Virus record (IMG/VR): IMGVR_UViG_641736224_000035 | From: a virus | Taxonomy: Duplodnaviria; Heunggongvirae; Uroviricota; Caudoviricetes | Strand: one strand, 5' to 3' | DNA: 25,810 nt | Translations under genes and position numbers: made by a program | The notes under the pieces: generated by a model | Database searches by the model: none | The model's input: only the letters and a program-made list of their open reading frames with translations | What the model was told of the DNA's origin: nothing | Part shown: piece by piece, positions 1 to 13,607 of the stretch | How the letters are laid out: the number at the start of each line of letters is the position of its first letter | Position numbering within the stretch: the first letter of the stretch is position 1

Positions 1-981
1 CTAACGTCCTGCTTTTAACAATAACCAGATAAACACCGGCGCACCCAACGTTGCGGTGACCACGCCAATAGGCAGCTCTGCGGCAGCTAATGCCAGGCGC
101 GCTACAATATCGGCCAGCAGCAATGCGCTCGCCCCTGCCAGCGCGCAGCCGGGAAGTAATGCGCGATGATCGGTTAAACCACACAACCGAAGAATATGTG
201 GGATCACCAGACCAATAAAGCCGATAGCACCCGCCAGCGCTACACTGACGCCAACCATCCAGCCGGTCGCTGCCACCAGCACATTGCGCCAGAACCACAG
301 GGGTAAACCCAGTTGCCGCGCCGAGATCTCGCCAAGTGCTAACATATTCATCGGCCTGGACTGACAACAGATCCACAACAACATGGGGATCAATGCCAGC
401 ATCAGCCAGCTTTGCCGCCAGTCTACGCCGCCAAAACCGCCCATCATCCAGTACATCAGCTGACGTAAATCAACAGAGGTGGAAAAGTAGATAGCCCACG
501 TCATTAGTGCGCTACAGATAATCCCTAATGCAACGCCAGCCAGCAATAACCGACTGGTCGAAAGATGACGACGGGCGAAACGTAAGAGTATTAAAGTGAT
601 GATAAGCGCCCCAGCAATCGCACACAGCCCTAGCGCCCAGTTGGGGAGTTGCCCTTGCCCAAGCAATACCGCGGCGATAAGCCCCACGCCTGCGCCGTTA
701 GAGACGCCAAGTAGTCCAGGTTCTGCCAGAGGATTTTCAAACAACGCCTGCATTACAGCGCCGGATATAGCCAGCGCCGCACCAACCAGCAATACAGCCA
801 GCGTACGTGGCAGGCGAATTTGCCAGACGAACAGTTCGCCACGAGGAGAAAACCAGTCACCTGGCGAGATCCATTGTTCACCGGCGCAAAGGCTTAAGAG
901 AAGCGCCAGCAGCATCAAAACTGACAGGCATAATAACCAGCGAATATTTTGTCGCTGTTGTTGGCGGGCAAGTGTCAGCAT
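1..981 (-). CDS. btuC: Vitamin B12 ABC transporter permease BtuC (complete, 326 aa)
   Basis: Translation ([44 protein letters not shown]...) is recognised as near-identical to E. coli BtuC; multi-pass hydrophobic profile; ATG at 979-981 (cat on + strand), stop at 1-3. Confidence 0.92.
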
Positions 982-1040
982 GGTATCCGTTCTGCTGAAG
1001 TGTCATGGCGTTGATTTTACGGTGACTCTTCGACAGTGAA

Positions 1041-1064
1041 AAGAAAAAAGGCCGCAGAGCGGCC
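1041..1064 (-). terminator. Candidate rho-independent terminator read on the minus strand
   Basis: Perfect 6-bp GC stem ggccgc/gcggcc (1050-1055 / 1059-1064, 3-nt loop) preceded on the + strand by an A-run (1041-1049), i.e. a U-run after the hairpin on the minus strand. Lies downstream of the minus-strand gene ending at 1174 and upstream of btuC. Confidence 0.45.
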
Positions 1065-1173
1065 ATAAACACAAGCAAAAATCAATAAGTTAGATAATTA
1101 TCAAAGACTTACAGACACACAAAAACACAGCCAACCACAACAAATAACAGGGATGTGGTCAATTTGTGGATCA

Positions 1174-1728
1174 TCAGCCAACAAATTTAGCAACAAATAC
1201 AGCAACCGCCGCCGTGAAAATGGTTGTGCATACTGGCACAATAATGCCACTCCAACGCCACTTCGTATTATCATCAACCTTGTCAAACCGCCGATTCATC
1301 TCATCCATAATCTTGTCAAAGCGTTTATCCATCGCTTCGGTAAGCTCACCCTTCAGGCTGTTAATGTCTGATTTGAGCTGCTCTTTCAGGTGAGCTGTAT
1401 CAGATTTAAGCTCACCTTTTAGATTCGCAATATCGCATTTAAGATCACCTTTCAGATGAGCAATGTCTGCTTTGAGCTCACCTTTCACCTCACCAACATC
1501 AGCTTTGGTTGAGAGGTTTGTAGTGCGTTCAGTAAGCGTCGCAAGGTCGTTTCTTGTTAGCGATAAATCACCTTCGAGTCGCTCAATTCGCCTTTCAAGT
1601 TTATCTGACATTCCGCCTCCACTACTGCCGCCATCGCCGCCATGATAAAGCACATCACGCTCAGAATGCGACATACTACCTGCTGAATTACCGAAAAGGT
1701 TTCTTGCTGCATTACCCATTTTCACCAT
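1174..1728 (-). CDS. Tail-anchored coiled-coil membrane protein with tandem 11-residue repeats (184 aa; alternative start at 1611 gives 145 aa)
   Basis: ORF with C-terminal hydrophobic segment (IIVPVCTTIFTAAVAVFVAKFVG), central repeats DIAHLKGDLKC / DIANLKGELKS / DTAHLKEQLKS / DINSLKGELTE, Gly/Ser-rich N-terminus. ATG at 1726-1728 verified; internal ATG at 1609-1611 preceded by GGAGG. Family not recognised. Confidence 0.6.
   Translation of the reverse strand: MVKMGNAARNLFGNSAGSMSHSERDVLYHGGDGGSSGGGMSDKLERRIERLEGDLSLTRNDLATLTERTTNLSTKADVGEVKGELKADIAHLKGDLKCDIANLKGELKSDTAHLKEQLKSDINSLKGELTEAMDKRFDKIMDEMNRRFDKVDDNTKWRWSGIIVPVCTTIFTAAVAVFVAKFVG
1333..1497. repeat. Five imperfect tandem 33-bp repeats (in-frame, encode the 11-residue protein repeats)
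   Basis: Units 1333-1365, 1366-1398, 1399-1431, 1432-1464, 1465-1497 share a core ttNagctcacctttcag on the + strand; counted directly from the sequence. Confidence 0.65.
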
Positions 1729-2212
1729 CCTGCGCTTTGTCTTTCTCCAACCACTTCAGCACCGCAGACGTACGGTAAAGGCTCAGGTAACCACAATTCA
1801 GGCAATGCAGCGTGTAATAAGTTTTGCGCATATCAGGTATGCTCTTAACATCACCAAAAAAAGTATAAGATACATAATGCTTTATGTTCTCTTTAATTAA
1901 CTCACTCTGCTCCTCCAAGGGTAGATTGTTAAAATTTTCTGGTTTCTTATTTTTATCCCAACAAAGATCCATACTTTCAGGAATAGATAATCGCGACGAT
2001 CCACATGAAGGGCAGACACTGGAGACCCCCTTCTCAGACAAGAAACGGAAGAAGATTTCTGGCGTAATCTCCATCAGCCGCTCTTTATGTTTTTTGACAC
2101 GACTCATCGACTTCTTATTGATTTCATCAGCTTCTTCTTTGCATTTATCTTCTATATATTTCGATAGTAAATAGTCATATAACTCTTTTTTTGTAGGTTT
2201 TTTTATTTCCAT
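1712..2212 (-). CDS. Hypothetical zinc-ribbon protein, AT-rich cargo gene (166 aa)
   Basis: ATG at 2210-2212, two nt after the integrase stop, with a GGGAGG Shine-Dalgarno inside the integrase 3' end. Two CxxCG motifs (CPSCG, CLNCG) about 65 residues apart; Lys/Glu-rich; visibly lower GC than the neighbours. Family not recognised. Confidence 0.55.
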   Translation of the reverse strand: MEIKKPTKKELYDYLLSKYIEDKCKEEADEINKKSMSRVKKHKERLMEITPEIFFRFLSEKGVSSVCPSCGSSRLSIPESMDLCWDKNKKPENFNNLPLEEQSELIKENIKHYVSYTFFGDVKSIPDMRKTYYTLHCLNCGYLSLYRTSAVLKWLEKDKAQDGENG

Positions 2213-2214
2213 AG

Positions 2215-3192
2215 TTACATTCCTCCCAAGGGATTAAACCTCACCGCATCCTGCAAGTAATCCGGCGCAAGATGGGCATAAATCATCGTTGTCTGAATCT
2301 TTGCGTGCCCCAGAATTTTCTGGAGCGTCAGAATATTGCCGCCGTTCATCATGAAATGACTGGCGAAGGTGTGGCGCAGCGCATGAACAGCCTGGCCGTC
2401 GGGAACATCAGGTGCGACCGTTTTGATGACATCGCGAACCAATGGATAATCCAGCGTCGGAAACACCAGTTTCCCGCCCCGTTTTTTGATCTTTTCAAAC
2501 AGGCTTTCAGAAATAGGAACGGTACGGTTTTTGCTGTTCTTCGTTTTTGAAAAAGTGATTCGACAATGAAGAACACGGCGCTGCTCCAGTGCCGCTACCT
2601 CGCCCCATCGCGCCCCGGTCGACAGAAGGATTTCGACAGCCAGCCGTTCATCGGGATTTTCAGCCAGTGCATCCAGCAACTGAACACATTCAGACTTACT
2701 CAGATATCCCATTTCACGCTCGTTAACCTTCATTCCTTTAAGGCCTTGAACGGGGTTATCATTAAGAAAATGGCCGGATGAGATGAGTGCGGTAAACATC
2801 GCGCTTAACGCCCCAATCTCTCGATTTATGGTGCTGGGCTGTATCCCCTGCTCTATCCTGGACACACGTAGCTCGGTGAGCATTGTTGTATTAAGTTTAT
2901 GCACGCACGGGTCATCCATTGCCTCACTCAAGCGCAGCAATTTAAGGCGCGTGTTATGCCCTGACTTCATTAGCTGGCCGTGGTATTTCCACCACAAGTC
3001 AATAAGCACTGACAGAGGACGGCGATCAATAGAGTTTCCTTTCCACTCATTGTTATGCTGTTGCGCCAGCACCCACCGCTCATATAAAACTGCATCCGAT
3101 TTCGTTTTAAATTTTTTGCGAATGCGTTTGCCTTTACGCCCCTCAGGGCGCATGTCAAGAAGATACCCTCCCGGAATTGATTTTATGCTCAT
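2215..3192 (-). CDS. int: P2-type tyrosine integrase (site-specific recombinase)
   Basis: C-terminus ...HALRHTFASHFMMNGGNILTLQKILGHAKIQTTMIYAHLAPDYLQDAVRFNPL carries the R-H-R-Y tyrosine-recombinase signature. N-terminus MSIKSIPGGYLLDMRPEGRKGKRIRKKF aligns with remembered P2 Int; ATG 3190-3192 verified. The ORF track's longer version (to 3342) is probably an upstream extension. Confidence 0.85.
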   Translation of the reverse strand: MSIKSIPGGYLLDMRPEGRKGKRIRKKFKTKSDAVLYERWVLAQQHNNEWKGNSIDRRPLSVLIDLWWKYHGQLMKSGHNTRLKLLRLSEAMDDPCVHKLNTTMLTELRVSRIEQGIQPSTINREIGALSAMFTALISSGHFLNDNPVQGLKGMKVNEREMGYLSKSECVQLLDALAENPDERLAVEILLSTGARWGEVAALEQRRVLHCRITFSKTKNSKNRTVPISESLFEKIKKRGGKLVFPTLDYPLVRDVIKTVAPDVPDGQAVHALRHTFASHFMMNGGNILTLQKILGHAKIQTTMIYAHLAPDYLQDAVRFNPLGGM

Positions 3193-3241
3193 TCGTGAAA
3201 CCCCAGCGTTACAAGACCACCATGCCCCCAGCGCTCCATGA

Positions 3242-3550
3242 TTAGCCGGGCTGTGTGCCAGTCTTGCGGGGTTTTTGAGAAGGCGATGTGCTTTTTGGCC
3301 CATCAGGGGAGAGAGACGGACTGATCTGCCCAGCAGCCTCATTTGTTTTTCCCGTCATAAGCCAATTCATGTACTTAAAAAAGCGAGGGTGATTAACAAT
3401 CTTGATAAGCACTTCGCCCCCTATGTTTTCAATCCGCCCCGTTTCATAACGACGCAAAGTGCCGATAGGCACATCAATCAGGCCGCAAAATTCTTCGCGC
3501 GTTAAATCCTCTGATTCACGAATCACTCTAATTTTTTCACCGATAAGCAT
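3242..3550 (-). CDS. Immunity repressor (P2 C-like), about 103 aa
   Basis: Small ORF directly upstream of and co-oriented with int, divergent from the early operon; helix-turn-helix-like segment (DLTREEFCGLIDVPIGTLRRYETGR). ATG at 3548-3550 chosen; the GTG at 3586 would place the start inside the operator palindrome. Confidence 0.65.
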   Translation of the reverse strand: MLIGEKIRVIRESEDLTREEFCGLIDVPIGTLRRYETGRIENIGGEVLIKIVNHPRFFKYMNWLMTGKTNEAAGQISPSLSPDGPKSTSPSQKPRKTGTQPG

Positions 3551-3646
3551 TGACAGTGTTCCTATAAGTACACTAAGCTTGCGCACAAGGTGTACTTATA
3601 AGTACACCAAGTCACAAACAACCACAGATAGCGCAGGTTATCACAC
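3551..3646. promoter_or_regulatory. Lysis/lysogeny switch region with palindromic operator
   Basis: Perfect 20-bp palindrome GGTGTACTTATAAGTACACC at 3589-3608, and a further copy of its half-site TATAAGTACAC at 3563-3573, between divergent repressor (start 3550) and cox-like (start 3647) genes. Exact -35/-10 elements not confidently placed. Confidence 0.5.
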
Positions 3647-3925
3647 ATGGCAAAAGTCCTGAACACACACGAACAGGCAGACTTTGAGCGTTTAGCAGCG
3701 TTCTATCCCTACCGCGATGAGCATGGGTTACCAGTACTTGAAGAAAGCCTGAAAGATTACGCAAAGCGTACCAACCAAGCTGTTAACACAGTGAAAAGAC
3801 AGGCTGACAGAGGTTCAATTCCCATCAACCAGGATGAAAAGAACTCAAGACGCACAGTAAATCTCTTCGCTCTTTTCCTGAAAACAATCAGGAGCGCAGA
3901 AAAATACGTGCAGATGACAAAATAA
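3647..3925 (+). CDS. First gene of early operon; Cox/Apl-like excisionase-regulator by position and size (92 aa)
   Basis: ATG 3647 verified; small ORF divergent from the repressor, as for P2 cox / 186 apl. Assignment is positional, not by recognised sequence. Confidence 0.5.
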   Translation: MAKVLNTHEQADFERLAAFYPYRDEHGLPVLEESLKDYAKRTNQAVNTVKRQADRGSIPINQDEKNSRRTVNLFALFLKTIRSAEKYVQMTK

Positions 3926-4587: not shown

Positions 4588-4830
4588 ATGGGCAAAGAAT
4601 ATAAAACTCTCATTAACAAAGCACTTGAGCGTTTTTATTTTCGCTTAAGTGCATCAGGCGCTCATGCTGAACGTGCGGCCCGTGACTCATTGACCAGAGC
4701 AATCCGAAGTCTGTATGACGTGGCTTTTTACGCTGATGATCTGGATGCACTTAACGAACTTTCCGAGCTGATCTGTGCCGCAGAATGCGGGGAACATATT
4801 GAACCGTATAAGCTGGGAAATATCGCATGA
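4588..4830 (+). CDS. Hypothetical early protein (80 aa)
   Basis: ATG at 4588 preceded by AAAGGG; the track start at 4585 is a GTG one codon upstream. Confidence 0.5.
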   Translation: MGKEYKTLINKALERFYFRLSASGAHAERAARDSLTRAIRSLYDVAFYADDLDALNELSELICAAECGEHIEPYKLGNIA

Positions 4831-4940
4831 GTATATTTATCTCATGGCTTGTTCTGATTATTTCGGTGGTCTGCGCCATTGGGATTATGCGAATTATTAA
4901 TTCAGTGAAAAAGATCGAGCGTTTTTTCTCTGATGAATAA
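4827..4940 (+). CDS. Possible small hydrophobic peptide (37 aa), translationally coupled
   Basis: ATGA start/stop overlap with the preceding gene at 4827-4830; translation MSIFISWLVLIISVVCAIGIMRIINSVKKIERFFSDE has one predicted transmembrane helix. Below the ORF-track size cut-off; read manually. Confidence 0.3.
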   Translation: MSIFISWLVLIISVVCAIGIMRIINSVKKIERFFSDE

Positions 4941-5096
4941 CGATACAAATAAAACATCAAATTAAATAAGAAAACGTGAAAACCATCCGTATTAATGGAG
5001 GTATTCGCACGCGTAAATAACGGAGATATAAAATGAAAGCAAAAGAAGAAGGCATTATCGACACATTAAAAAAAAATATCAGAAGCGGAAGATGAA

Positions 5097-5450
5097 ATGG
5101 CTAAAGATGCCGTGAAGCGTAGCCAACATATGGCAGCACTTCACGCACTGACCATTGCAAAAATCACCGCTGACGCAGCCAAAATTATTGAGGAACAGGG
5201 CAAAGAAATCGATACTCTTAAAACACAGTCAACAGTTGCAGCCATGAATCCGTCCAGCATTGGACGCCGCATTTACATTCTTGGTTCGGCAATAATGACG
5301 CAATACACCATTATTGCCGAACTGCACGGCAAATACCTGATAACGCCTTACCACACAAAAGAGTCAGAGCTTCTGACAAATCTCCGCCTGATAGAACGCT
5401 CTCAAGCTGTATTCATTGATGACGCGCAACGTGCCGTATTTAACGCATAG
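5097..5450 (+). CDS. Hypothetical early protein (117 aa)
   Basis: ATG 5097 verified; follows an AT-rich spacer. Confidence 0.5.
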   Translation: MAKDAVKRSQHMAALHALTIAKITADAAKIIEEQGKEIDTLKTQSTVAAMNPSSIGRRIYILGSAIMTQYTIIAELHGKYLITPYHTKESELLTNLRLIERSQAVFIDDAQRAVFNA

Positions 5451-6236: not shown

Positions 6237-6358
6237 GAAACCAGAACATGCACACACAAAAAAACCGCTTGCCATGCCGCAATCAGTCAGGTTACATTTC
6301 CGCTGCACCTCATAAAACGGGTGCCGGGATTTCCACCCCGCTGACAACCAAAGCGCAC

Positions 6359-6379
6359 AACCGCGCCAGCGGTTTTTTT
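6359..6379 (+). terminator. Candidate rho-independent terminator inside the early region
   Basis: Stem aaccgc/gcggtt (6359-6364 / 6369-6374, loop gcca) followed by a T7 run to 6379. Confidence 0.55.
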
Positions 6380-6420
6380 GTGCGTACCGTATCGCCACGT
6401 CTTTTTCGCACACGAATTAT

Positions 6421-6499
6421 GGTGGGGCGTACAGGGCCGACTTCGGTCGGGCCGGGTTCTTTGGTTGCCGGTTGTGGAAACCCTGTACGTCTCACCACC
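6421..6499 (+). other. Candidate structured RNA element (nested GC-rich stems with UUCG tetraloop)
   Basis: ggtgg (6421-6425) pairs ccacc (6495-6499); cgtacaggg (6428-6436) pairs ccctgtacg (6481-6489); inner hairpin ccgac-ttcg-gtcgg (6437-6450). Not a tRNA cloverleaf. Function unknown. Confidence 0.3.
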
Positions 6500-6558
6500 C
6501 CGAGTTTTCCACCTCTGGATGGTGAGTTTTCAAAACTTACAACCAAAGAGGCCACCCC

Positions 6559-10163: not shown

Positions 10164-11123
10164 ATGAAAATTTACATCGACGACGGCTCCACCAACATCA
10201 AGCTGGCATGGACTGAGAACGGCGAACGCCGCAACGCCATCAGCCCGAACAGCTTCAAGTCGGAATGGTCTGCGCCGTTCGGTGGCTCGCAGCCTGCTAA
10301 CTACATGCTTGATGGCGTGCGCTATGGTTTTGATCCGGTCAGCGATCGCTTTGTCCAGACGACCGACACGCAATACCAGTACAGCGATGTGAATGTCATT
10401 GCCATTCATCACGCGCTGGTCAAATCAGACATCACGCCACAGGAAGTGGATGTGGTTGTTACCCTGCCACTGAGCGAATATTTCGACACAAACGCACAGC
10501 CGGACATGGCCAACATCAACCGCAAAAAAGCGAACGTCATGCGCCCGGTGGAGTACCAGAACGGCGAAGCATTCACTATCCGTAACGTACGGGTTATGCC
10601 TGAATCCATTCCGGCTGGCTTTAAAGCACTGGCTGACATGAGTCCGTTTGAATCCCTGCTGATTGTGGATTTGGGCGGAACCACGCTGGATGTGGCAAAG
10701 GTTCAGGGGCAACTGGCAGGTATCAGCCAGGTGTTTTGCGATCCACACGTAGGCGTTTCTCTTATGGCCGATGCCGTACTGTCGGTGATGGCCACTAACG
10801 GTATGCGCACCAGTCACCACATCGCCAATACCATTATCGAACATCGCCATAATGAAGCCTGGCTGCGCCAGCACATCCACAATGACGCGCATTACGCCAG
10901 CCTGATGGCGGTTATTCGTGAAAAGGAAGAAACACTGAAACAACGCGTGATCCGCGCGCTGGCGGTTTTTTCGGGTTACGGGCGGGTGATGGTTGTCGGT
11001 GGCGGGGCGGAGATTGTGGCACCCGCTATCCGCGAAGCCTGCGGAGTTAATGCGACTTTCATCGCGGACGGGGTGCCACAGTTTGCTCTGGTTAATGGGC
11101 TGTACGCAATGGACAAGGAGTAA
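10164..11123 (+). CDS. parM: Actin-like segregation ATPase, ParM/StbA family (319 aa)
   Basis: Recognised blocks shared with plasmid R1 ParM: MKIYIDDGSTNIKLAW, ISPNSFKSEW, YSDVNVIAIHHAL, VMPESIPAGF, SLLIVDLGGTTLDV, GYGRVMVVGGGAEIV, ALVNGLYAM. AAGGA Shine-Dalgarno before ATG 10164. Confidence 0.85.
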   Translation: MKIYIDDGSTNIKLAWTENGERRNAISPNSFKSEWSAPFGGSQPANYMLDGVRYGFDPVSDRFVQTTDTQYQYSDVNVIAIHHALVKSDITPQEVDVVVTLPLSEYFDTNAQPDMANINRKKANVMRPVEYQNGEAFTIRNVRVMPESIPAGFKALADMSPFESLLIVDLGGTTLDVAKVQGQLAGISQVFCDPHVGVSLMADAVLSVMATNGMRTSHHIANTIIEHRHNEAWLRQHIHNDAHYASLMAVIREKEETLKQRVIRALAVFSGYGRVMVVGGGAEIVAPAIREACGVNATFIADGVPQFALVNGLYAMDKE

Positions 11124-11127
11124 ACCA

Positions 11128-11439
11128 ATGACGACACCAACCAGACGGATAAGTTTCTATCTGAAGCCCGCCGCCGTCAAGAACGAAGGAGAAGCATGCG
11201 CCTGGCTGGACAGCCTTACACCAGAAGCCCGCAAAAGCGGCCAACGCGTGGCTTTTCTGGCCGGGCTGGCACTTCTGAAGACGAATCCGGCAGAGGCTTA
11301 CCGACTGGCCGCATGGGCTGATGATGAGATGTTACCTGTGACACAAATCAGCTCAAAAAAGTTTGAAGCACAGTCTGCACCAGTGGCTAAGATAACCAGC
11401 CAGATGGCTGGGAATATCCGGGCGTTATTTCCTGAGTAA
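11128..11439 (+). CDS. parR: ParR-like centromere-binding adaptor (103 aa)
   Basis: Immediately follows parM (AAGGAG Shine-Dalgarno, ATG 11128). N-terminal RISFYLKP...LDSLTPEARKSGQRVAFLAGLAL resembles the remembered ribbon-helix-helix N-terminus of R1 ParR. Start is an internal Met of track ORF 10993..11439. Confidence 0.65.
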   Translation: MTTPTRRISFYLKPAAVKNEGEACAWLDSLTPEARKSGQRVAFLAGLALLKTNPAEAYRLAAWADDEMLPVTQISSKKFEAQSAPVAKITSQMAGNIRALFPE

Positions 11440-12560: not shown

Positions 12561-13607
12561 TCAGGATGTGGGCTGGGTATCTAACAGTGCGTAAGGGTTA
12601 AAGCGGATCACCTCTTCGCCAAGCCAGTCATTGATGTGCTTCATGGCCTCCATGACGGGCATCAGCTCGTTAATTGCGTAAACCCGCGCGGCCTTCTCCA
12701 CATCACCAAACGCACTTTTTTCGCCCGGCATCGCCCCCATCAGTTGCGGCGGAACGCGGTGCGCAGCCAGCACATCATCACGGGATGCCGCCTTAACATT
12801 CATGAACTCATCCTTTGCGGTGATCTGCTGGAACGGCAAAATTTGCACCCCCTCTTTGCCCCCGTTGGGCGCATGAATGAGCACGTTTTTAAACGCACCA
12901 CCACCACGTGCCCCCTGTAGCGTTTCTTTCAGGGAGTCCATGCTTTCGCGGTTTACCTGCGCTGCACCGATGTAGATGATGCACCCGGCGTGGGATCCGT
13001 TGTCGTAGTACAGTTTTCTGAACATGTCCGCCGAATGAGAAAGGCTGGCCGAGAGTAATGCGCCAAGATATTCCGGCATGCCGTAGATTTCCTGGTTAAT
13101 ATCCGGATTCATCAGGTGGCACACTTTGCCAGGACGAAACTGAAACGCATCCTTGCCATCCTGCACATACCACCATGATTCAAGATCGCTTCCGCGTCGC
13201 ATGTATTTCGCCAGGGCGTGCCGTAATTTAAGCGGTTCGCCGAGCATATTGCTCCGAAGCTCAAGGAATGCGTTACCGAACACAAACCAGTCCAGCGCCA
13301 GCGCCGAGAAATCCTGCCGGGAAAGCAGCGGGTGCGGAATATAGCAGCCGAGCAATACATTGCGCTTAAAGTAAAGCGCAGACTGATGCCAGGACGTTTG
13401 CCGGGCAGCTCTTGCCAGACCGTACCAGTCCACTGGGGTTTCATACCACCGCCCGTTATCAGCACAGTACATATTGTCCAGCAGGTCATGCCCGGTCAGG
13501 CGATAAGGACCATCAAATGTGAATGCACTGAGCGATGATTCTTTCCTGAGCGCATCAGCGAGATCAATGCGTGAACTCATGCGCACTTTTTTATTTTTTC
13601 TGCTCAT
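12561..13607 (-). CDS. Q: Portal protein (P2 gpQ family)
   Basis: 348-aa ORF adjacent to and co-oriented with the large terminase, overlapping its stop by one nt; sequence recognised as Q-like. ATG 13605-13607 verified. Confidence 0.85.
   Translation of the reverse strand: MSRKNKKVRMSSRIDLADALRKESSLSAFTFDGPYRLTGHDLLDNMYCADNGRWYETPVDWYGLARAARQTSWHQSALYFKRNVLLGCYIPHPLLSRQDFSALALDWFVFGNAFLELRSNMLGEPLKLRHALAKYMRRGSDLESWWYVQDGKDAFQFRPGKVCHLMNPDINQEIYGMPEYLGALLSASLSHSADMFRKLYYDNGSHAGCIIYIGAAQVNRESMDSLKETLQGARGGGAFKNVLIHAPNGGKEGVQILPFQQITAKDEFMNVKAASRDDVLAAHRVPPQLMGAMPGEKSAFGDVEKAARVYAINELMPVMEAMKHINDWLGEEVIRFNPYALLDTQPTS

What the first reader, a model, noticed from the sequence alone, without database searches (positions are those of the whole stretch)
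1174..2212. Integrase-proximal cargo pair: AT-rich zinc-ribbon protein plus repeat-built tail-anchored coiled-coil protein
Two co-oriented, tightly packed genes sit between the integrase stop and the chromosomal btuC. The first has its Shine-Dalgarno inside int and is markedly more AT-rich than the phage backbone, which suggests separate acquisition. The pair ends at a terminator. Int-adjacent slots are common sites for lysogenic-conversion or defence cargo, and a membrane-anchored coiled coil paired with a zinc-ribbon partner is compatible with a membrane-acting exclusion or abortive-infection module. Neither protein matches a family I recognise.
Basis: partly seen in the sequence, partly recalled or inferred. 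Interest (0 to 1): 0.6.

Follow-up and report, generated by a model that had tools for sequence, protein, structure and literature searches.

The report
Prophage zinc-ribbon plus membrane coiled-coil cassette
Two tightly coupled genes at the end of a P2-like prophage's repressor-integrase operon form a mobile cassette of untested function, found in the cargo slots of many temperate phages, which makes it a good but unproven candidate for a new phage-exclusion module.

Summary
The window is an E. coli O157:H7 P2-like prophage inserted in the ihfA terminator upstream of btuC. The two minus-strand genes, 1712-2212 and 1174-1719, lie inside attL, directly after int.

Gene 1 is a C4 zinc-ribbon protein from a small orphan family. 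A confident model (pLDDT 89.5) has no fold relative. Gene 2 is a DUF1640/Bdr-like tail-anchored inner-membrane protein. It has a variable N-peptide, a Gly-rich linker, a beta-layer motif, 11-residue repeats that vary in number, and a C-terminal TM helix.

The pair is a mobile cassette. In 15 contexts examined, every zinc-ribbon homologue is followed within -17 to +1 nt by such a membrane coiled-coil gene. These contexts include P2-like, 186-like, Rac/lambdoid (the rexAB position beside cI) and siphovirus backbones.

In E. coli prophages with the same integrase, the int-attL slot holds this pair (39 genomes), a divergent allele of it (86), or an unrelated gene (158). Zinc-ribbon alleles are swapped by recombination but remain under purifying selection.

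Function is untested. My best guess (about 0.4) is a lysogen-expressed, Rex-like exclusion or abortive-infection module. No known defence model matches either protein.

The parts
1045..1066 (.). attL core (GAAAAAAGGCCGCAGAGCGGCC). This is the left boundary of the prophage and is identical to the ihfA terminator in the empty site.
   Evidence: Homology to K-12 ends at window 1066. The same 22-nt core lies next to ihfA at attR in strain FRIK944 (L003, about 13314-13336).
1040..1064 (-). Intrinsic terminator-like hairpin (1064-1050) plus T-run. It ends the repressor-int-pair transcription unit.
   Evidence: The homologous cassettes in L025 and L028 also end at a hairpin plus T-run directly after the membrane-protein gene.
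1174..1719 (-). Gene 2: a 181-aa DUF1640/Bdr-like tail-anchored coiled-coil inner-membrane protein. The alternative in-frame ATG at 1728 gives 184 aa. RefSeq calls only 1174-1611.
   Evidence: dN/dS against the L010 allele is 0.31 over the whole gene and 0.14 for residues 21-181.
1189..1245 (-). Coding region for the single C-terminal transmembrane helix (residues 159-177). Only 4 residues follow it.
   Evidence: Kyte-Doolittle maximum of 2.43 over 19 residues at position 159.
1383..1487 (-). 33-bp tandem repeats encoding the 11-residue (hendecad) units LKGELKxDIxx.
   Evidence: TRF: period 33, 3.2 copies, 77% matches. Homologues differ in length by multiples of 11 residues: 148, 159, 170, 181 and 192 aa.
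1498..1515 (-). Beta-layer motif LSTKAD (residues 69-74) at the start of the stalk.
   Evidence: The motif is present in partner proteins from 13 of 16 loci scanned (window plus 15). It matches the [aliphatic]-A-T-K-[polar]-[DE] hallmark described for DUF1640 (PMC4786415).
1612..1719 (-). Variable N-terminal peptide (residues 1-26) plus the Gly-rich linker GGDGGSSGGG (residues 27-36).
   Evidence: The linker is conserved in most partners. A recombination breakpoint falls at about codon 20 of this gene.
1712..2212 (-). Gene 1: a 166-aa C4 zinc-ribbon protein from an orphan family (phrog_4293).
   Evidence: AF2 model has pLDDT 89.5. No fold relative was found. dN/dS is 0.29 overall and about 0.1 in the conserved cores.
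2003..2014 (-). First zinc knuckle, CxxC (C67, C70).
   Evidence: Invariant in 73 homologues.
1793..1804 (-). Second zinc knuckle, CxxC (C137, C140).
   Evidence: Invariant in 73 homologues.
2221..2226 (-). GGAGGA Shine-Dalgarno of gene 1, lying inside the last codons of int.
   Evidence: Read directly from the sequence.
2215..3192 (-). P2-type tyrosine integrase (RefSeq start used here; the ORF extends to 3342).
   Evidence: Pfam Int_N and Phage_integrase; RefSeq annotation.
3242..3550 (-). HTH immunity repressor (P2 C-like), the first gene of the lysogenic operon.
   Evidence: Pfam HTH_3 and phrog_147; RefSeq annotation.

Best explanation
**What it is (shown)**
- The two genes are a self-contained, horizontally mobile accessory cassette.
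- It occupies the variable int-attL cargo slot of a P2-like prophage.
- It forms the last two cistrons of the lysogenic transcription unit: repressor, int, zinc-ribbon gene, coiled-coil gene, then the att-core terminator.

**Anatomy (shown or predicted from sequence)**
- The coiled-coil protein is a DUF1640/Bdr-type tail-anchored protein.
- By analogy with beta-layer coiled coils, it probably forms a trimeric stalk of about 100 residues, anchored in the inner membrane by a C-terminal helix and projecting into the cytoplasm.
- At its tip are a Gly-rich flexible linker and a variable peptide of about 25 residues.
- The zinc-ribbon protein is a soluble 19.5-kDa C4 zinc protein.
- Its conserved cores are an ITPExFxxFL helix, two knuckles and a C-terminal helix.
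- Its variable surfaces are an N-terminal helix and a roughly 55-residue insert between the knuckles.

**How it most likely works (inferred, not shown)**
- Both proteins are made in the lysogen in coupled amounts and form a complex at the membrane. The zinc-ribbon protein docks on the tip of the stalk.
- The variable zinc-ribbon subunit acts as sensor or adaptor for a component of a superinfecting phage.
- The conserved membrane stalk acts as effector or scaffold, either perturbing the membrane (Rex- or XhlA/holin-like) or sequestering the target at the membrane.
- The result would be exclusion or abortive infection.

**Confidence.** About 0.85 that this is a real, conserved, lysogen-expressed accessory cassette. 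About 0.4 that its role is anti-phage.
For: **The pair lies inside the prophage.**

**It reads as one transcription unit.**
- The SD of gene 1 is inside int, 2 nt separate the int stop from the gene 1 ATG, and genes 1 and 2 overlap by 8 nt.
- The consensus scan found no sigma-70-like site on the minus strand within int.
- The only minus-strand terminator-like hairpin downstream of the pair is the att-core one (a weaker site lies inside the coiled-coil gene at 1215-1199).
- Phage 186 is annotated with Orf69 between int and attP, and with a 'terminator of lysogenic operon' beyond it.

**The cassette is conserved across backbones.**

| Context | Gene order |
|---|---|
| P2-like at btuC | HTH, int, pair |
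| 186-like | HTH, pair, int |
| Rac/lambdoid | CI-like repressor, pair, terminator, then ydaE-recE-recT (the rexAB position) |
| Inside or beside tail genes | pair as an insert |

- In 15 loci from 10 zinc-ribbon clusters, the partner gene starts -17 to +1 nt from the zinc-ribbon stop and has one TM segment.
- Two close coiled-coil homologues, checked in the reverse direction, both have an upstream zinc-ribbon ORF. One of these had been missed by gene callers.

**The slot is variable.** Occupants are 39, 86 and 158 genomes among about 293 that carry the same int.

**The zinc-ribbon allele is swapped while its flanks are nearly identical.**
- Window versus L010: dS is 0.065 for int, 0.12 for the coiled-coil body and 1.12 for the zinc-ribbon gene.
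- The breakpoint falls at about codon 20 of the coiled-coil gene.
- Both genes are under purifying selection.

**Published context.** Int-att holds 3% of P2 defence systems (PMC13586616). The cI-int region of K139-like P2 relatives carries RM, Septu and PARIS (PMC9122126).
Against: - No functional data exist for either family.
- PADLOC gives only coiled-coil noise (ZorA, LmuB) and nothing for the zinc-ribbon protein.
- The zinc-ribbon model has no fold relative that would point to a sensor or nuclease role.
- The bulk of the membrane protein faces the cytoplasm, so it cannot block injection from the periplasmic side.
- Expression in the lysogen is inferred from gene order only.
- Some copies lie among late tail genes, where lysogenic expression is not implied and no promoter was detected.
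- More distant DUF1640-like or similarly built repeat proteins occur without a zinc-ribbon partner. Examples are Liberibacter SC1, APSE-1, Borrelia Bdr and a chromosomal gene. Their roles are unknown, so the family is not obviously dedicated to defence.
Confidence: 0.4

Rival explanations
1. Toxin-antitoxin or addiction module. The membrane coiled-coil protein would be a membrane-damaging toxin, and the upstream, translationally coupled zinc-ribbon protein its antitoxin. The pair would stabilise the prophage or kill cells that lose it.
For: - The gene order (small soluble protein first, overlapping stop/start, membrane protein second) resembles type II TA operons.
- There are weak hits of the C-terminal part to holin and XhlA-type profiles: phrog_689 at E 0.006, phrog_1193 at E 0.04, and Pfam XhlA at E 4e-4 for one family member.
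- The same prophage carries a Hok/Gef toxin gene at its other end, so addiction genes are tolerated there.
Against: - In a lineage represented by at least 14 contigs, the zinc-ribbon gene is frameshifted at codon 51, before both zinc knuckles. The 181-aa coiled-coil ORF remains intact, with 176 of 181 residues identical. The membrane protein is therefore not lethal without its partner, although lost translational coupling could lower its expression.
- In a TA pair the antitoxin usually co-evolves tightly with the toxin. Here very different zinc-ribbon alleles (54% identity) pair with a nearly identical coiled-coil body.
Confidence: 0.12
2. Lysogenic-conversion factor acting on host physiology rather than on phages. 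A membrane-tethered scaffold that recruits or sequesters a host protein, by analogy with the mitochondrial scaffold role proposed for MCUR1, and so changes envelope, stress or virulence traits of the lysogen.
For: - The gene is in the lysogenic operon and is AT-rich cargo.
- The protein shows family resemblance to DUF1640/CCDC90 and to Borrelia Bdr proteins. [quoted passage not shown]
- The host strains are STEC and other pathogenic E. coli.
Against: - The cassette is spread over many phage backbones and hosts (E. coli, Salmonella, Klebsiella, Enterobacter) with no link to one lifestyle.
- Rapid allele swapping of the zinc-ribbon gene fits an arms-race target better than a conserved host target.
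Confidence: 0.15
3. Phage-intrinsic function. The pair would be an accessory regulator of the phage's own life cycle, for example modulating integration/excision, repressor activity, induction or lysis timing from the membrane.
For: - The pair is tightly linked to repressor and integrase genes in three phage types.
- In other contexts it is co-oriented with tail or late genes.
- It has a XhlA-like C-terminal module, and in PBSX XhlA belongs to a lysis cassette (own knowledge; weak hits).
Against: - It is dispensable. Among E. coli genomes carrying the same integrase (>=95% identity), 158 (over half) hold the unrelated 131-aa gene, which where inspected (O104:H4) replaces the pair in the slot. 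Classical P2 has no gene in this slot (own knowledge), and phage 186 has only the small Orf69 there.
- Its position differs between backbones, which is typical of morons rather than of core regulators.
Confidence: 0.1

Closest known systems
Phage lambda rexA-rexB (repressor-cotranscribed two-component exclusion system)
   Same: - Both are two co-transcribed genes expressed with the immunity repressor: one soluble protein plus one inner-membrane protein.
- In Rac/lambdoid loci L028-L030, the homologous pair sits exactly between the CI-like repressor and the early-left (ydaE-recE-recT) genes and ends at a terminator.
   Different: - There is no sequence or profile similarity to RexA or RexB.
- The membrane partner here is a single-pass tail-anchored coiled coil, whereas RexB is polytopic (own knowledge).
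- The function here is untested.
DUF1640 / CCDC90-like family (PF07798; MCUR1, CCDC90B and prokaryotic homologues)
   Same: - It has a C-terminal TM anchor and a long coiled-coil stalk.
- The beta-layer motif [aliphatic]-[A/S]-T-K-x-[D/E] sits at the start of the stalk: LSTKAD here, FATKSD and YASKGD in homologues.
- RefSeq names it DUF1640/CCDC90.
- It gives a weak PDB hit to 6h9l, whose PDB entry is titled only 'Uncharacterized protein' (E 0.2).
   Different: - The Pfam score of 26.8 bits is below the gathering cut-off of 33.5.
- No folded head domain is evident. Instead there is a variable peptide plus a Gly-rich linker.
- The obligate zinc-ribbon partner has not been described for this family.
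Borrelia Bdr (KID-repeat) proteins of cp32 prophage plasmids
   Same: - They are prophage-encoded and associated with the inner membrane.
- They have a C-terminal TM anchor and a central array of 11-residue repeats whose copy number varies. Compare VKSDLKSDIMS in Bdr with LKGELKSDTAH here.
- Pairwise BLASTP gives E 8e-14.
- Their function is also unknown (PMC10016077, PMC4370689).
   Different: - The similarity is largely driven by the repeats.
- Bdr is described as specific to Borrelia, lacks the Gly-rich linker, and the one bdr locus inspected (B. miyamotoi lp29) showed no annotated upstream partner gene.
- The literal KID/KIE tripeptide is absent here.
Cargo of the P2-like int-att and cI-int variable slots (minor defence hotspots)
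   Same: The location is the same. Alternative, unrelated occupants are found among prophages with the same integrase. Published surveys place known defence systems in these slots (PMC13586616; PMC9122126; bioRxiv 10.1101/2024.10.15.618418).
   Different: This particular pair is not among the described systems and matches no PADLOC model.
XhlA-type phage membrane proteins (PF10779)
   Same: - They are short coiled coils followed by a C-terminal TM helix, with a D-x-x-x-K-W motif before the helix.
- Mannheimia lambdoid phages carry a single-TM XhlA-domain gene directly next to cI (PMC4553209).
   Different: Only 1 of 18 family members reaches E 4e-4 to XhlA, and the window protein gives no hit. 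XhlA proteins are shorter and belong to lysis cassettes (own knowledge).

Membership tests
DUF1640 / CCDC90-like (PF07798) | Score at or above the Pfam gathering threshold | tested here: not met
   26.5-26.8 bits against a cut-off of 33.5. Ten of 18 aligned family members hit at E<0.01 (best 1.4e-6), and the window protein itself is below the cut-off.
DUF1640 / CCDC90-like (PF07798) | Beta-layer motif [aliphatic]-A-T-K-[polar]-[D/E] at the start of the C-terminal stalk (PMC4786415) | tested here: met
   LSTKAD at residues 69-74. Equivalent motifs occur in the partners from 13 of 16 loci scanned (window plus 15).
DUF1640 / CCDC90-like (PF07798) | Single C-terminal transmembrane anchor | tested here: met
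   Hydrophobic 19-mer at residues 159-177 with 4 residues after it.
DUF1640 / CCDC90-like (PF07798) | Trimeric coiled-coil assembly | not testable with these tools
   No multimer prediction or experiment was available.
Borrelia Bdr family | Central array of 11-residue repeats with variable copy number, plus a C-terminal membrane anchor | tested here: met
   Seven hendecads. Homologue lengths step by 11 residues. Pairwise BLASTP to a B. miyamotoi Bdr gives E 8e-14.
Borrelia Bdr family | KID/KIE tripeptide repeats; family restricted to Borrelia plasmids | tested here: not met
   The repeats read K-[A/C/S]-D-I/T, not KID. The host is E. coli.
Lambda RexAB-type exclusion system | Co-transcription with the immunity repressor in the lysogen | tested here: inconclusive
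   Gene order, overlaps and terminator positions fit. No expression data are available.
Lambda RexAB-type exclusion system | Homology to RexA/RexB | tested here: not met
   No RexA or RexB family appears among the Pfam or PHROG hits.
Lambda RexAB-type exclusion system | Exclusion of superinfecting phage by membrane depolarisation | not testable with these tools
   This needs infection assays.
Known anti-phage defence systems (PADLOC-DB v2.0.0) | Significant match of either protein to a defence-system model | tested here: not met
   The coiled-coil protein gives only low-scoring coiled-coil matches (ZorA 21 bits, LmuB 21 bits). The zinc-ribbon protein's best hit is DUF3800_VII at E 0.005, 14 bits.
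P2-like int-att variable cargo slot (hotspot) | [quoted passage not shown] | tested here: met
P2-like int-att variable cargo slot (hotspot) | Different gene content at the same position among closely related elements | tested here: met
   Three occupant types (39, 86 and 158 genomes) behind integrases of >=95% identity.
Type II toxin-antitoxin pair | The toxin is not tolerated without the antitoxin | tested here: not met
   At least 14 contigs carry a frameshifted zinc-ribbon gene with an intact coiled-coil gene. This is indirect evidence, because expression was not measured.

The most novel reading that the evidence does not exclude
The pair would be a previously undescribed two-component anti-phage system of temperate enterobacterial phages. 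A rapidly swapped, novel-fold zinc-ribbon sensor would sit on the tip of a trimeric, tail-anchored DUF1640/Bdr-type stalk. On sensing a superinfecting phage, the complex would perturb the inner membrane or trap the target there. If true, this would give the first assigned function to prokaryotic members of the DUF1640/MCUR1/Bdr superfamily.
Probability: 0.3. Interest if true: 0.75.

Novelty: new variant of a known kind. Interest (0 to 1): 0.5.

Why it matters
- **A ready candidate defence system.** If the cassette is a phage-exclusion system, it adds a new, compact two-gene system about 1 kb long. Its components match no known defence family. It lies in slots (int-att, cI-int, the rex position) that are less explored than the classical P2 and P4 hotspots.
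- **A handle on an unexplained protein family.** It would also give an experimental route into the DUF1640/CCDC90/Bdr family of tail-anchored coiled-coil membrane proteins. No function has been reported for the bacterial members that turned up in the sources consulted here. The mitochondrial relatives (MCUR1) are still debated.
- **Value even without a defence role.** The data define a conserved gene pair, correct a probable RefSeq start-site error, and show that one gene of the pair is swapped by recombination independently of the other.

Tried and rejected
**Database and structure searches that found nothing useful**
- Pfam, NCBIfam and PADLOC gave no significant family for the zinc-ribbon protein. 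For the coiled-coil protein they gave only sub-threshold DUF1640 and generic coiled-coil hits.
- PDB sequence searches found nothing significant.
- tblastn of the window's zinc-ribbon protein against phage and plasmid records found nothing. A more central family member (P0088) was needed to find phage copies.
- The genome-contig scan returned a single locus, because that collection holds one genome per species.
- The consensus promoter scan found no internal promoter for the pair, and none upstream of the cassette in tail-gene contexts. It also failed to flag the expected Pc-type promoter between the repressor gene and the divergent early genes (3586-3647), so it is uninformative rather than negative evidence.
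- Literature searches for DUF1640, CCDC90 or XhlA in prophage contexts found no functional study of this pair.

**Ideas considered and rejected**
- That the pair is chromosomal. It lies inside the att repeats.
- That the att site lies between int and the pair. Only 2 nt separate them.
- That RefSeq's 145-aa start is correct. The conserved upstream linker and the overlap with the zinc-ribbon stop argue against it.
- That the Aliivibrio plasmid gene upstream of a DUF1640 gene is a zinc-ribbon homologue. It is not.
Full report
**1. Where we are**

The window matches E. coli O157:H7 strain FRIK944 at 100% over the 2.5-kb stretch compared (window 900-3400). RefSeq annotates it as follows:
- btuC (window 1-981, minus strand);
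- a 'DUF1640 domain-containing protein';
- a 'hypothetical protein';
- a phage integrase and an HTH regulator;
- then a P2-type genome: DUF4761/DUF4754 early genes, replication endonuclease gpA, portal, terminase, capsid, lysis and tail genes.

In K-12, btuC is preceded directly by ihfA. Homology between the window and K-12 stops at window 1066, immediately after AAAAAAGGCCGCAGAGCGGCC, which is the ihfA terminator hairpin. In FRIK944 the far end of the prophage reads ...ogr, hok/gef, then GAAAGAAAAAAGGCCGCAGAGCGGCC followed by the K-12 sequence TTTTTAGTTAG and ihfA. The att core is therefore the 22-nt GAAAAAAGGCCGCAGAGCGGCC. attL is at window about 1045-1066, and everything to its right, including the pair, is prophage.

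**2.

- ORFs 1712-2212 (166 aa) and 1174-1728 (184 aa) are both on the minus strand and overlap each other.
- The first ATG is 2 nt after the int stop, and its GGAGGA lies in the last int codons.
- The first gene has GC 0.379, the lowest 0.4% of 500-bp windows in the prophage part of the window (mean 0.53). int is 0.492 and the second gene 0.452.
- The hairpin GGCCGCTCTGCGGCC plus T6 at 1064-1050 (minus strand) is the only terminator-like site downstream of the pair. A weaker one lies inside the coiled-coil gene at 1215-1199. The downstream hairpin is the att core itself.
- No sigma-70-like site was found on the minus strand inside int. That scan is crude.

**3. Gene 2, the coiled-coil membrane protein**

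RefSeq starts it at M40 (145 aa). Several lines point to a longer product:
- Homologues conserve what lies upstream of M40: a variable peptide of 20-30 residues and a Gly-rich linker (GGDGGSSGGG).
- Most keep an 8-nt ATG...TGA overlap with the upstream gene's stop.
- The commonest cluster is 181 aa (P0015).
- The likely start is therefore 1719.

Its anatomy runs as follows:
- N-peptide, then linker, then a conserved LERRIERLE helix;
- LSTKAD, then seven 11-residue units (LKGELKxDIxx);
- KWRW, a 19-residue hydrophobic helix, and 4 final residues.

LSTKAD fits the beta-layer motif that Hartmann et al. reported at the start of the stalk of DUF1640 membrane proteins (PMC4786415). The Pfam CCDC90-like score is 26.8 bits, below the 33.5 cut-off. 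phrog_9415 matches at 1e-14.

Homologue lengths step by 11 residues: 148, 159, 170, 181 and 192 aa. The alignment shows clean hendecad indels. At DNA level there is a 33-bp tandem array.

tblastn against plasmids hit Borrelia 'Bdr family repetitive protein' genes, and pairwise BLASTP gives E 8e-14. Bdr proteins are encoded on the cp32 prophage, are associated with the inner membrane, carry 11-residue KID repeats, and have no known function.

More distant DUF1640 proteins occur alone in Liberibacter phages SC1 and SC2, in APSE-1, on an Aliivibrio plasmid and in a chromosomal locus.

**4. Gene 1, the zinc-ribbon protein**

- No Pfam, NCBIfam or PADLOC family matches it. phrog_4293 (unknown function) matches at 1e-22.
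- The word-indexed search found 14 clusters.
- An exhaustive profile search of 1.84 billion representatives found 85 at E <= 1e-3. All are small, 57-180 aa.
- C67, C70, C137, C140 and W154 are invariant in 73 sequences. The conserved cores are ITPExFxxFL...KG...CxSCG and CxNCG...V..W.
- With the 73-sequence alignment, AlphaFold2 gives pLDDT 89.5 and pTM 0.71. The model has a long N-terminal helix, a short helix, a zinc-ribbon sheet with a helix-containing insert, and a C-terminal helix.

**5. The two genes form a cassette that moves between phages**

Contexts of divergent zinc-ribbon homologues:

| Context | Gene order |
|---|---|
| Salmonella, E. coli and metagenomic P2-like prophages at btuC | HTH, int, zinc-ribbon, coiled-coil |
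| Another P2-like prophage at a different site | HTH, int, zinc-ribbon, coiled-coil |
| Klebsiella P2-like episome | HTH, int, zinc-ribbon, coiled-coil |
| 186-like prophage | HTH, HTH, zinc-ribbon, coiled-coil, 92-aa gene, int |
| Rac/lambdoid prophages | CI-like repressor, zinc-ribbon, coiled-coil/TM protein with a periplasmic (PA)n tail, terminator, then ydaE, recE, recT |
| A myovirus prophage | pair between tail and baseplate genes, followed by a terminator |
| Salmonella phage SPN3UB and Klebsiella phage ST101-KPC2phi6.1 | pair next to the tape-measure region |

The Rac/lambdoid position is that of rexAB in lambda (gene order; the lambda map is my own knowledge).

A script over 15 loci from 10 zinc-ribbon clusters found, in every case, a partner ORF that starts -17 to +1 nt from the zinc-ribbon stop and has one strongly hydrophobic segment. 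Most also have the Gly linker and the beta-layer motif. The lambdoid version lacks both, so it may be only analogous.

In the reverse direction, two close coiled-coil homologues both have an upstream zinc-ribbon ORF. One is a TTG-start ORF that gene callers missed.

**6. The slot is variable and the zinc-ribbon allele is swapped**

- The integrase occurs at >=95% identity in about 293 of 5426 complete E. coli genomes.
- Only 39 genomes carry this coiled-coil gene. Of these, 23 have this zinc-ribbon allele, and 16 match only the first 459 nt of the query, which is the 3' part of the coiled-coil gene.
- 86 genomes carry a very different allele of the same pair: a 120-aa zinc-ribbon protein plus a 145-aa coiled-coil protein with GNDGGDG, LERRV, FATKSD and a TM helix.
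- 158 genomes, including O104:H4, carry an unrelated 131-aa orphan gene. In the one such locus inspected (O104:H4) it occupies the int-attL slot.

Window versus locus L010:

| Region | aa identity | dS | dN/dS |
|---|---|---|---|
| int | 99% | 0.065 | 0.07 |
| coiled-coil residues 21-181 | 97% | 0.12 | 0.14 |
| zinc-ribbon gene | 56% | 1.12 | 0.29 overall; 0.10-0.12 in the cores; 0.47 in the insert |

The breakpoint lies near codon 20 of the coiled-coil gene. This is allele replacement by recombination, with both genes under purifying selection. It suggests, but does not prove, that the zinc-ribbon protein and the partner's N-peptide form a matched specificity unit on a conserved stalk.

**7. 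Mechanism**

Shown:
- The pair is a conserved, translationally coupled cassette.
- Where it sits beside repressor genes, it is the terminal part of the repressor transcription unit.
- It consists of one soluble zinc protein plus one single-pass membrane coiled coil.
- It occupies a variable slot and has swapped alleles.

Inferred:
- The pair is expressed in lysogens and the two proteins form a complex.
- The coiled-coil protein has an N-in topology. The N-terminal 158 residues have no signal peptide, K/R residues flank the cytoplasmic side of the helix, and only 4 residues follow it.

The best-supported reading is a lysogen-expressed exclusion or abortive-infection module, analogous to RexAB or to the exclusion genes carried in other lysogeny modules. 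Published surveys support the slot as a defence locus:
- The int-att interval holds 3% of P2 defence systems (PMC13586616).
- The cI-int interval of K139-like P2 relatives carries RM, Septu and PARIS (PMC9122126).
- A third P2 hotspot lies between a tail gene and CI (bioRxiv 10.1101/2024.10.15.618418).

Against this reading:
- There is no match to any defence model.
- There is no informative fold.
- Related DUF1640 and Bdr proteins occur alone and have unknown roles.
- Some cassette copies lie among late genes.

A classical TA reading is weakened by one lineage. At least 14 contigs carry a 1-bp deletion that truncates the zinc-ribbon protein at codon 51, while the coiled-coil ORF stays intact.

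**8. Verdict**

The functional interpretation is plausible but untested.

This is an undescribed two-gene cassette in a known kind of locus. One component is an orphan with a confident but unmatched fold. The other belongs to a widespread family that has no reported function in the bacterial examples found here. I rate the interest as moderate. It is a well-defined, cheap-to-test candidate rather than a surprising mechanism already in hand.

Noticed in passing
window 6305-6502 (+): Rfam hits above gathering score to isrK (6305-6379, 64 bits) and to C4 antisense RNA (6415-6502, 82 bits). They lie in the early region of the P2-like prophage, beside 'ash family' and 'derepression' genes. This hints at an antisense-RNA immunity or antirepressor circuit inside a P2-type genome.
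   Followed up: no
window 10164-11439 (+): A ParM-like actin gene (10164-11123) and a 'plasmid partitioning/stability' gene sit in the canonical gpA-portal hotspot of P2-like phages, where defence systems are usually found. About 1.1 kb of sparsely annotated DNA follows before the portal gene.
   Followed up: no
window 4800-5100: A second AT-rich patch (GC 0.34-0.39) contains a 37-aa strongly hydrophobic ORF at 4827-4940 (+). RefSeq annotates it as a hypothetical protein.
   Followed up: no
L003 12907-13047 (FRIK944, outside the window, next to attR): A Hok/Gef family toxin gene lies between ogr and attR at the other end of the same prophage. Both att-proximal ends of the element therefore carry small membrane-protein cargo.
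   Followed up: no
window 1174-1719 (-): RefSeq starts the coiled-coil gene at M40 (1611, 145 aa). The conserved Gly-rich linker and N-peptide, together with the 8-nt overlap with the upstream stop, indicate a 181-aa product starting at 1719.
   Followed up: yes
L045/L046 2501-3538: A lineage of at least 14 contigs carries a 1-bp deletion that frameshifts the zinc-ribbon gene at codon 51. The 181-aa coiled-coil ORF remains intact, with 176 of 181 residues identical to the window.
   Followed up: yes
L039 3082-3477 (E. coli O104:H4) and 157 other genomes: An alternative occupant of the same int-attL slot is an orphan 131-aa protein with no Pfam or PADLOC match. It is present in 158 complete E. 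coli genomes.
   Followed up: partly
L028-L030 5377-5931: In Rac/lambdoid prophages the membrane partner has 7-residue GLKGQID repeats and a periplasmic (PA)n tail. The tail length differs between isolates, giving products of 172, 176 and 184 aa.
   Followed up: partly
window 982-1066: The phage integrates into the ihfA terminator, 85 nt upstream of the btuC start, and so separates ihfA from btuCED by the whole prophage. A promoter-like site on the btuC strand (1042-1014) remains on the chromosomal side of attL. Any effect on btuCED expression was not examined.
   Followed up: no
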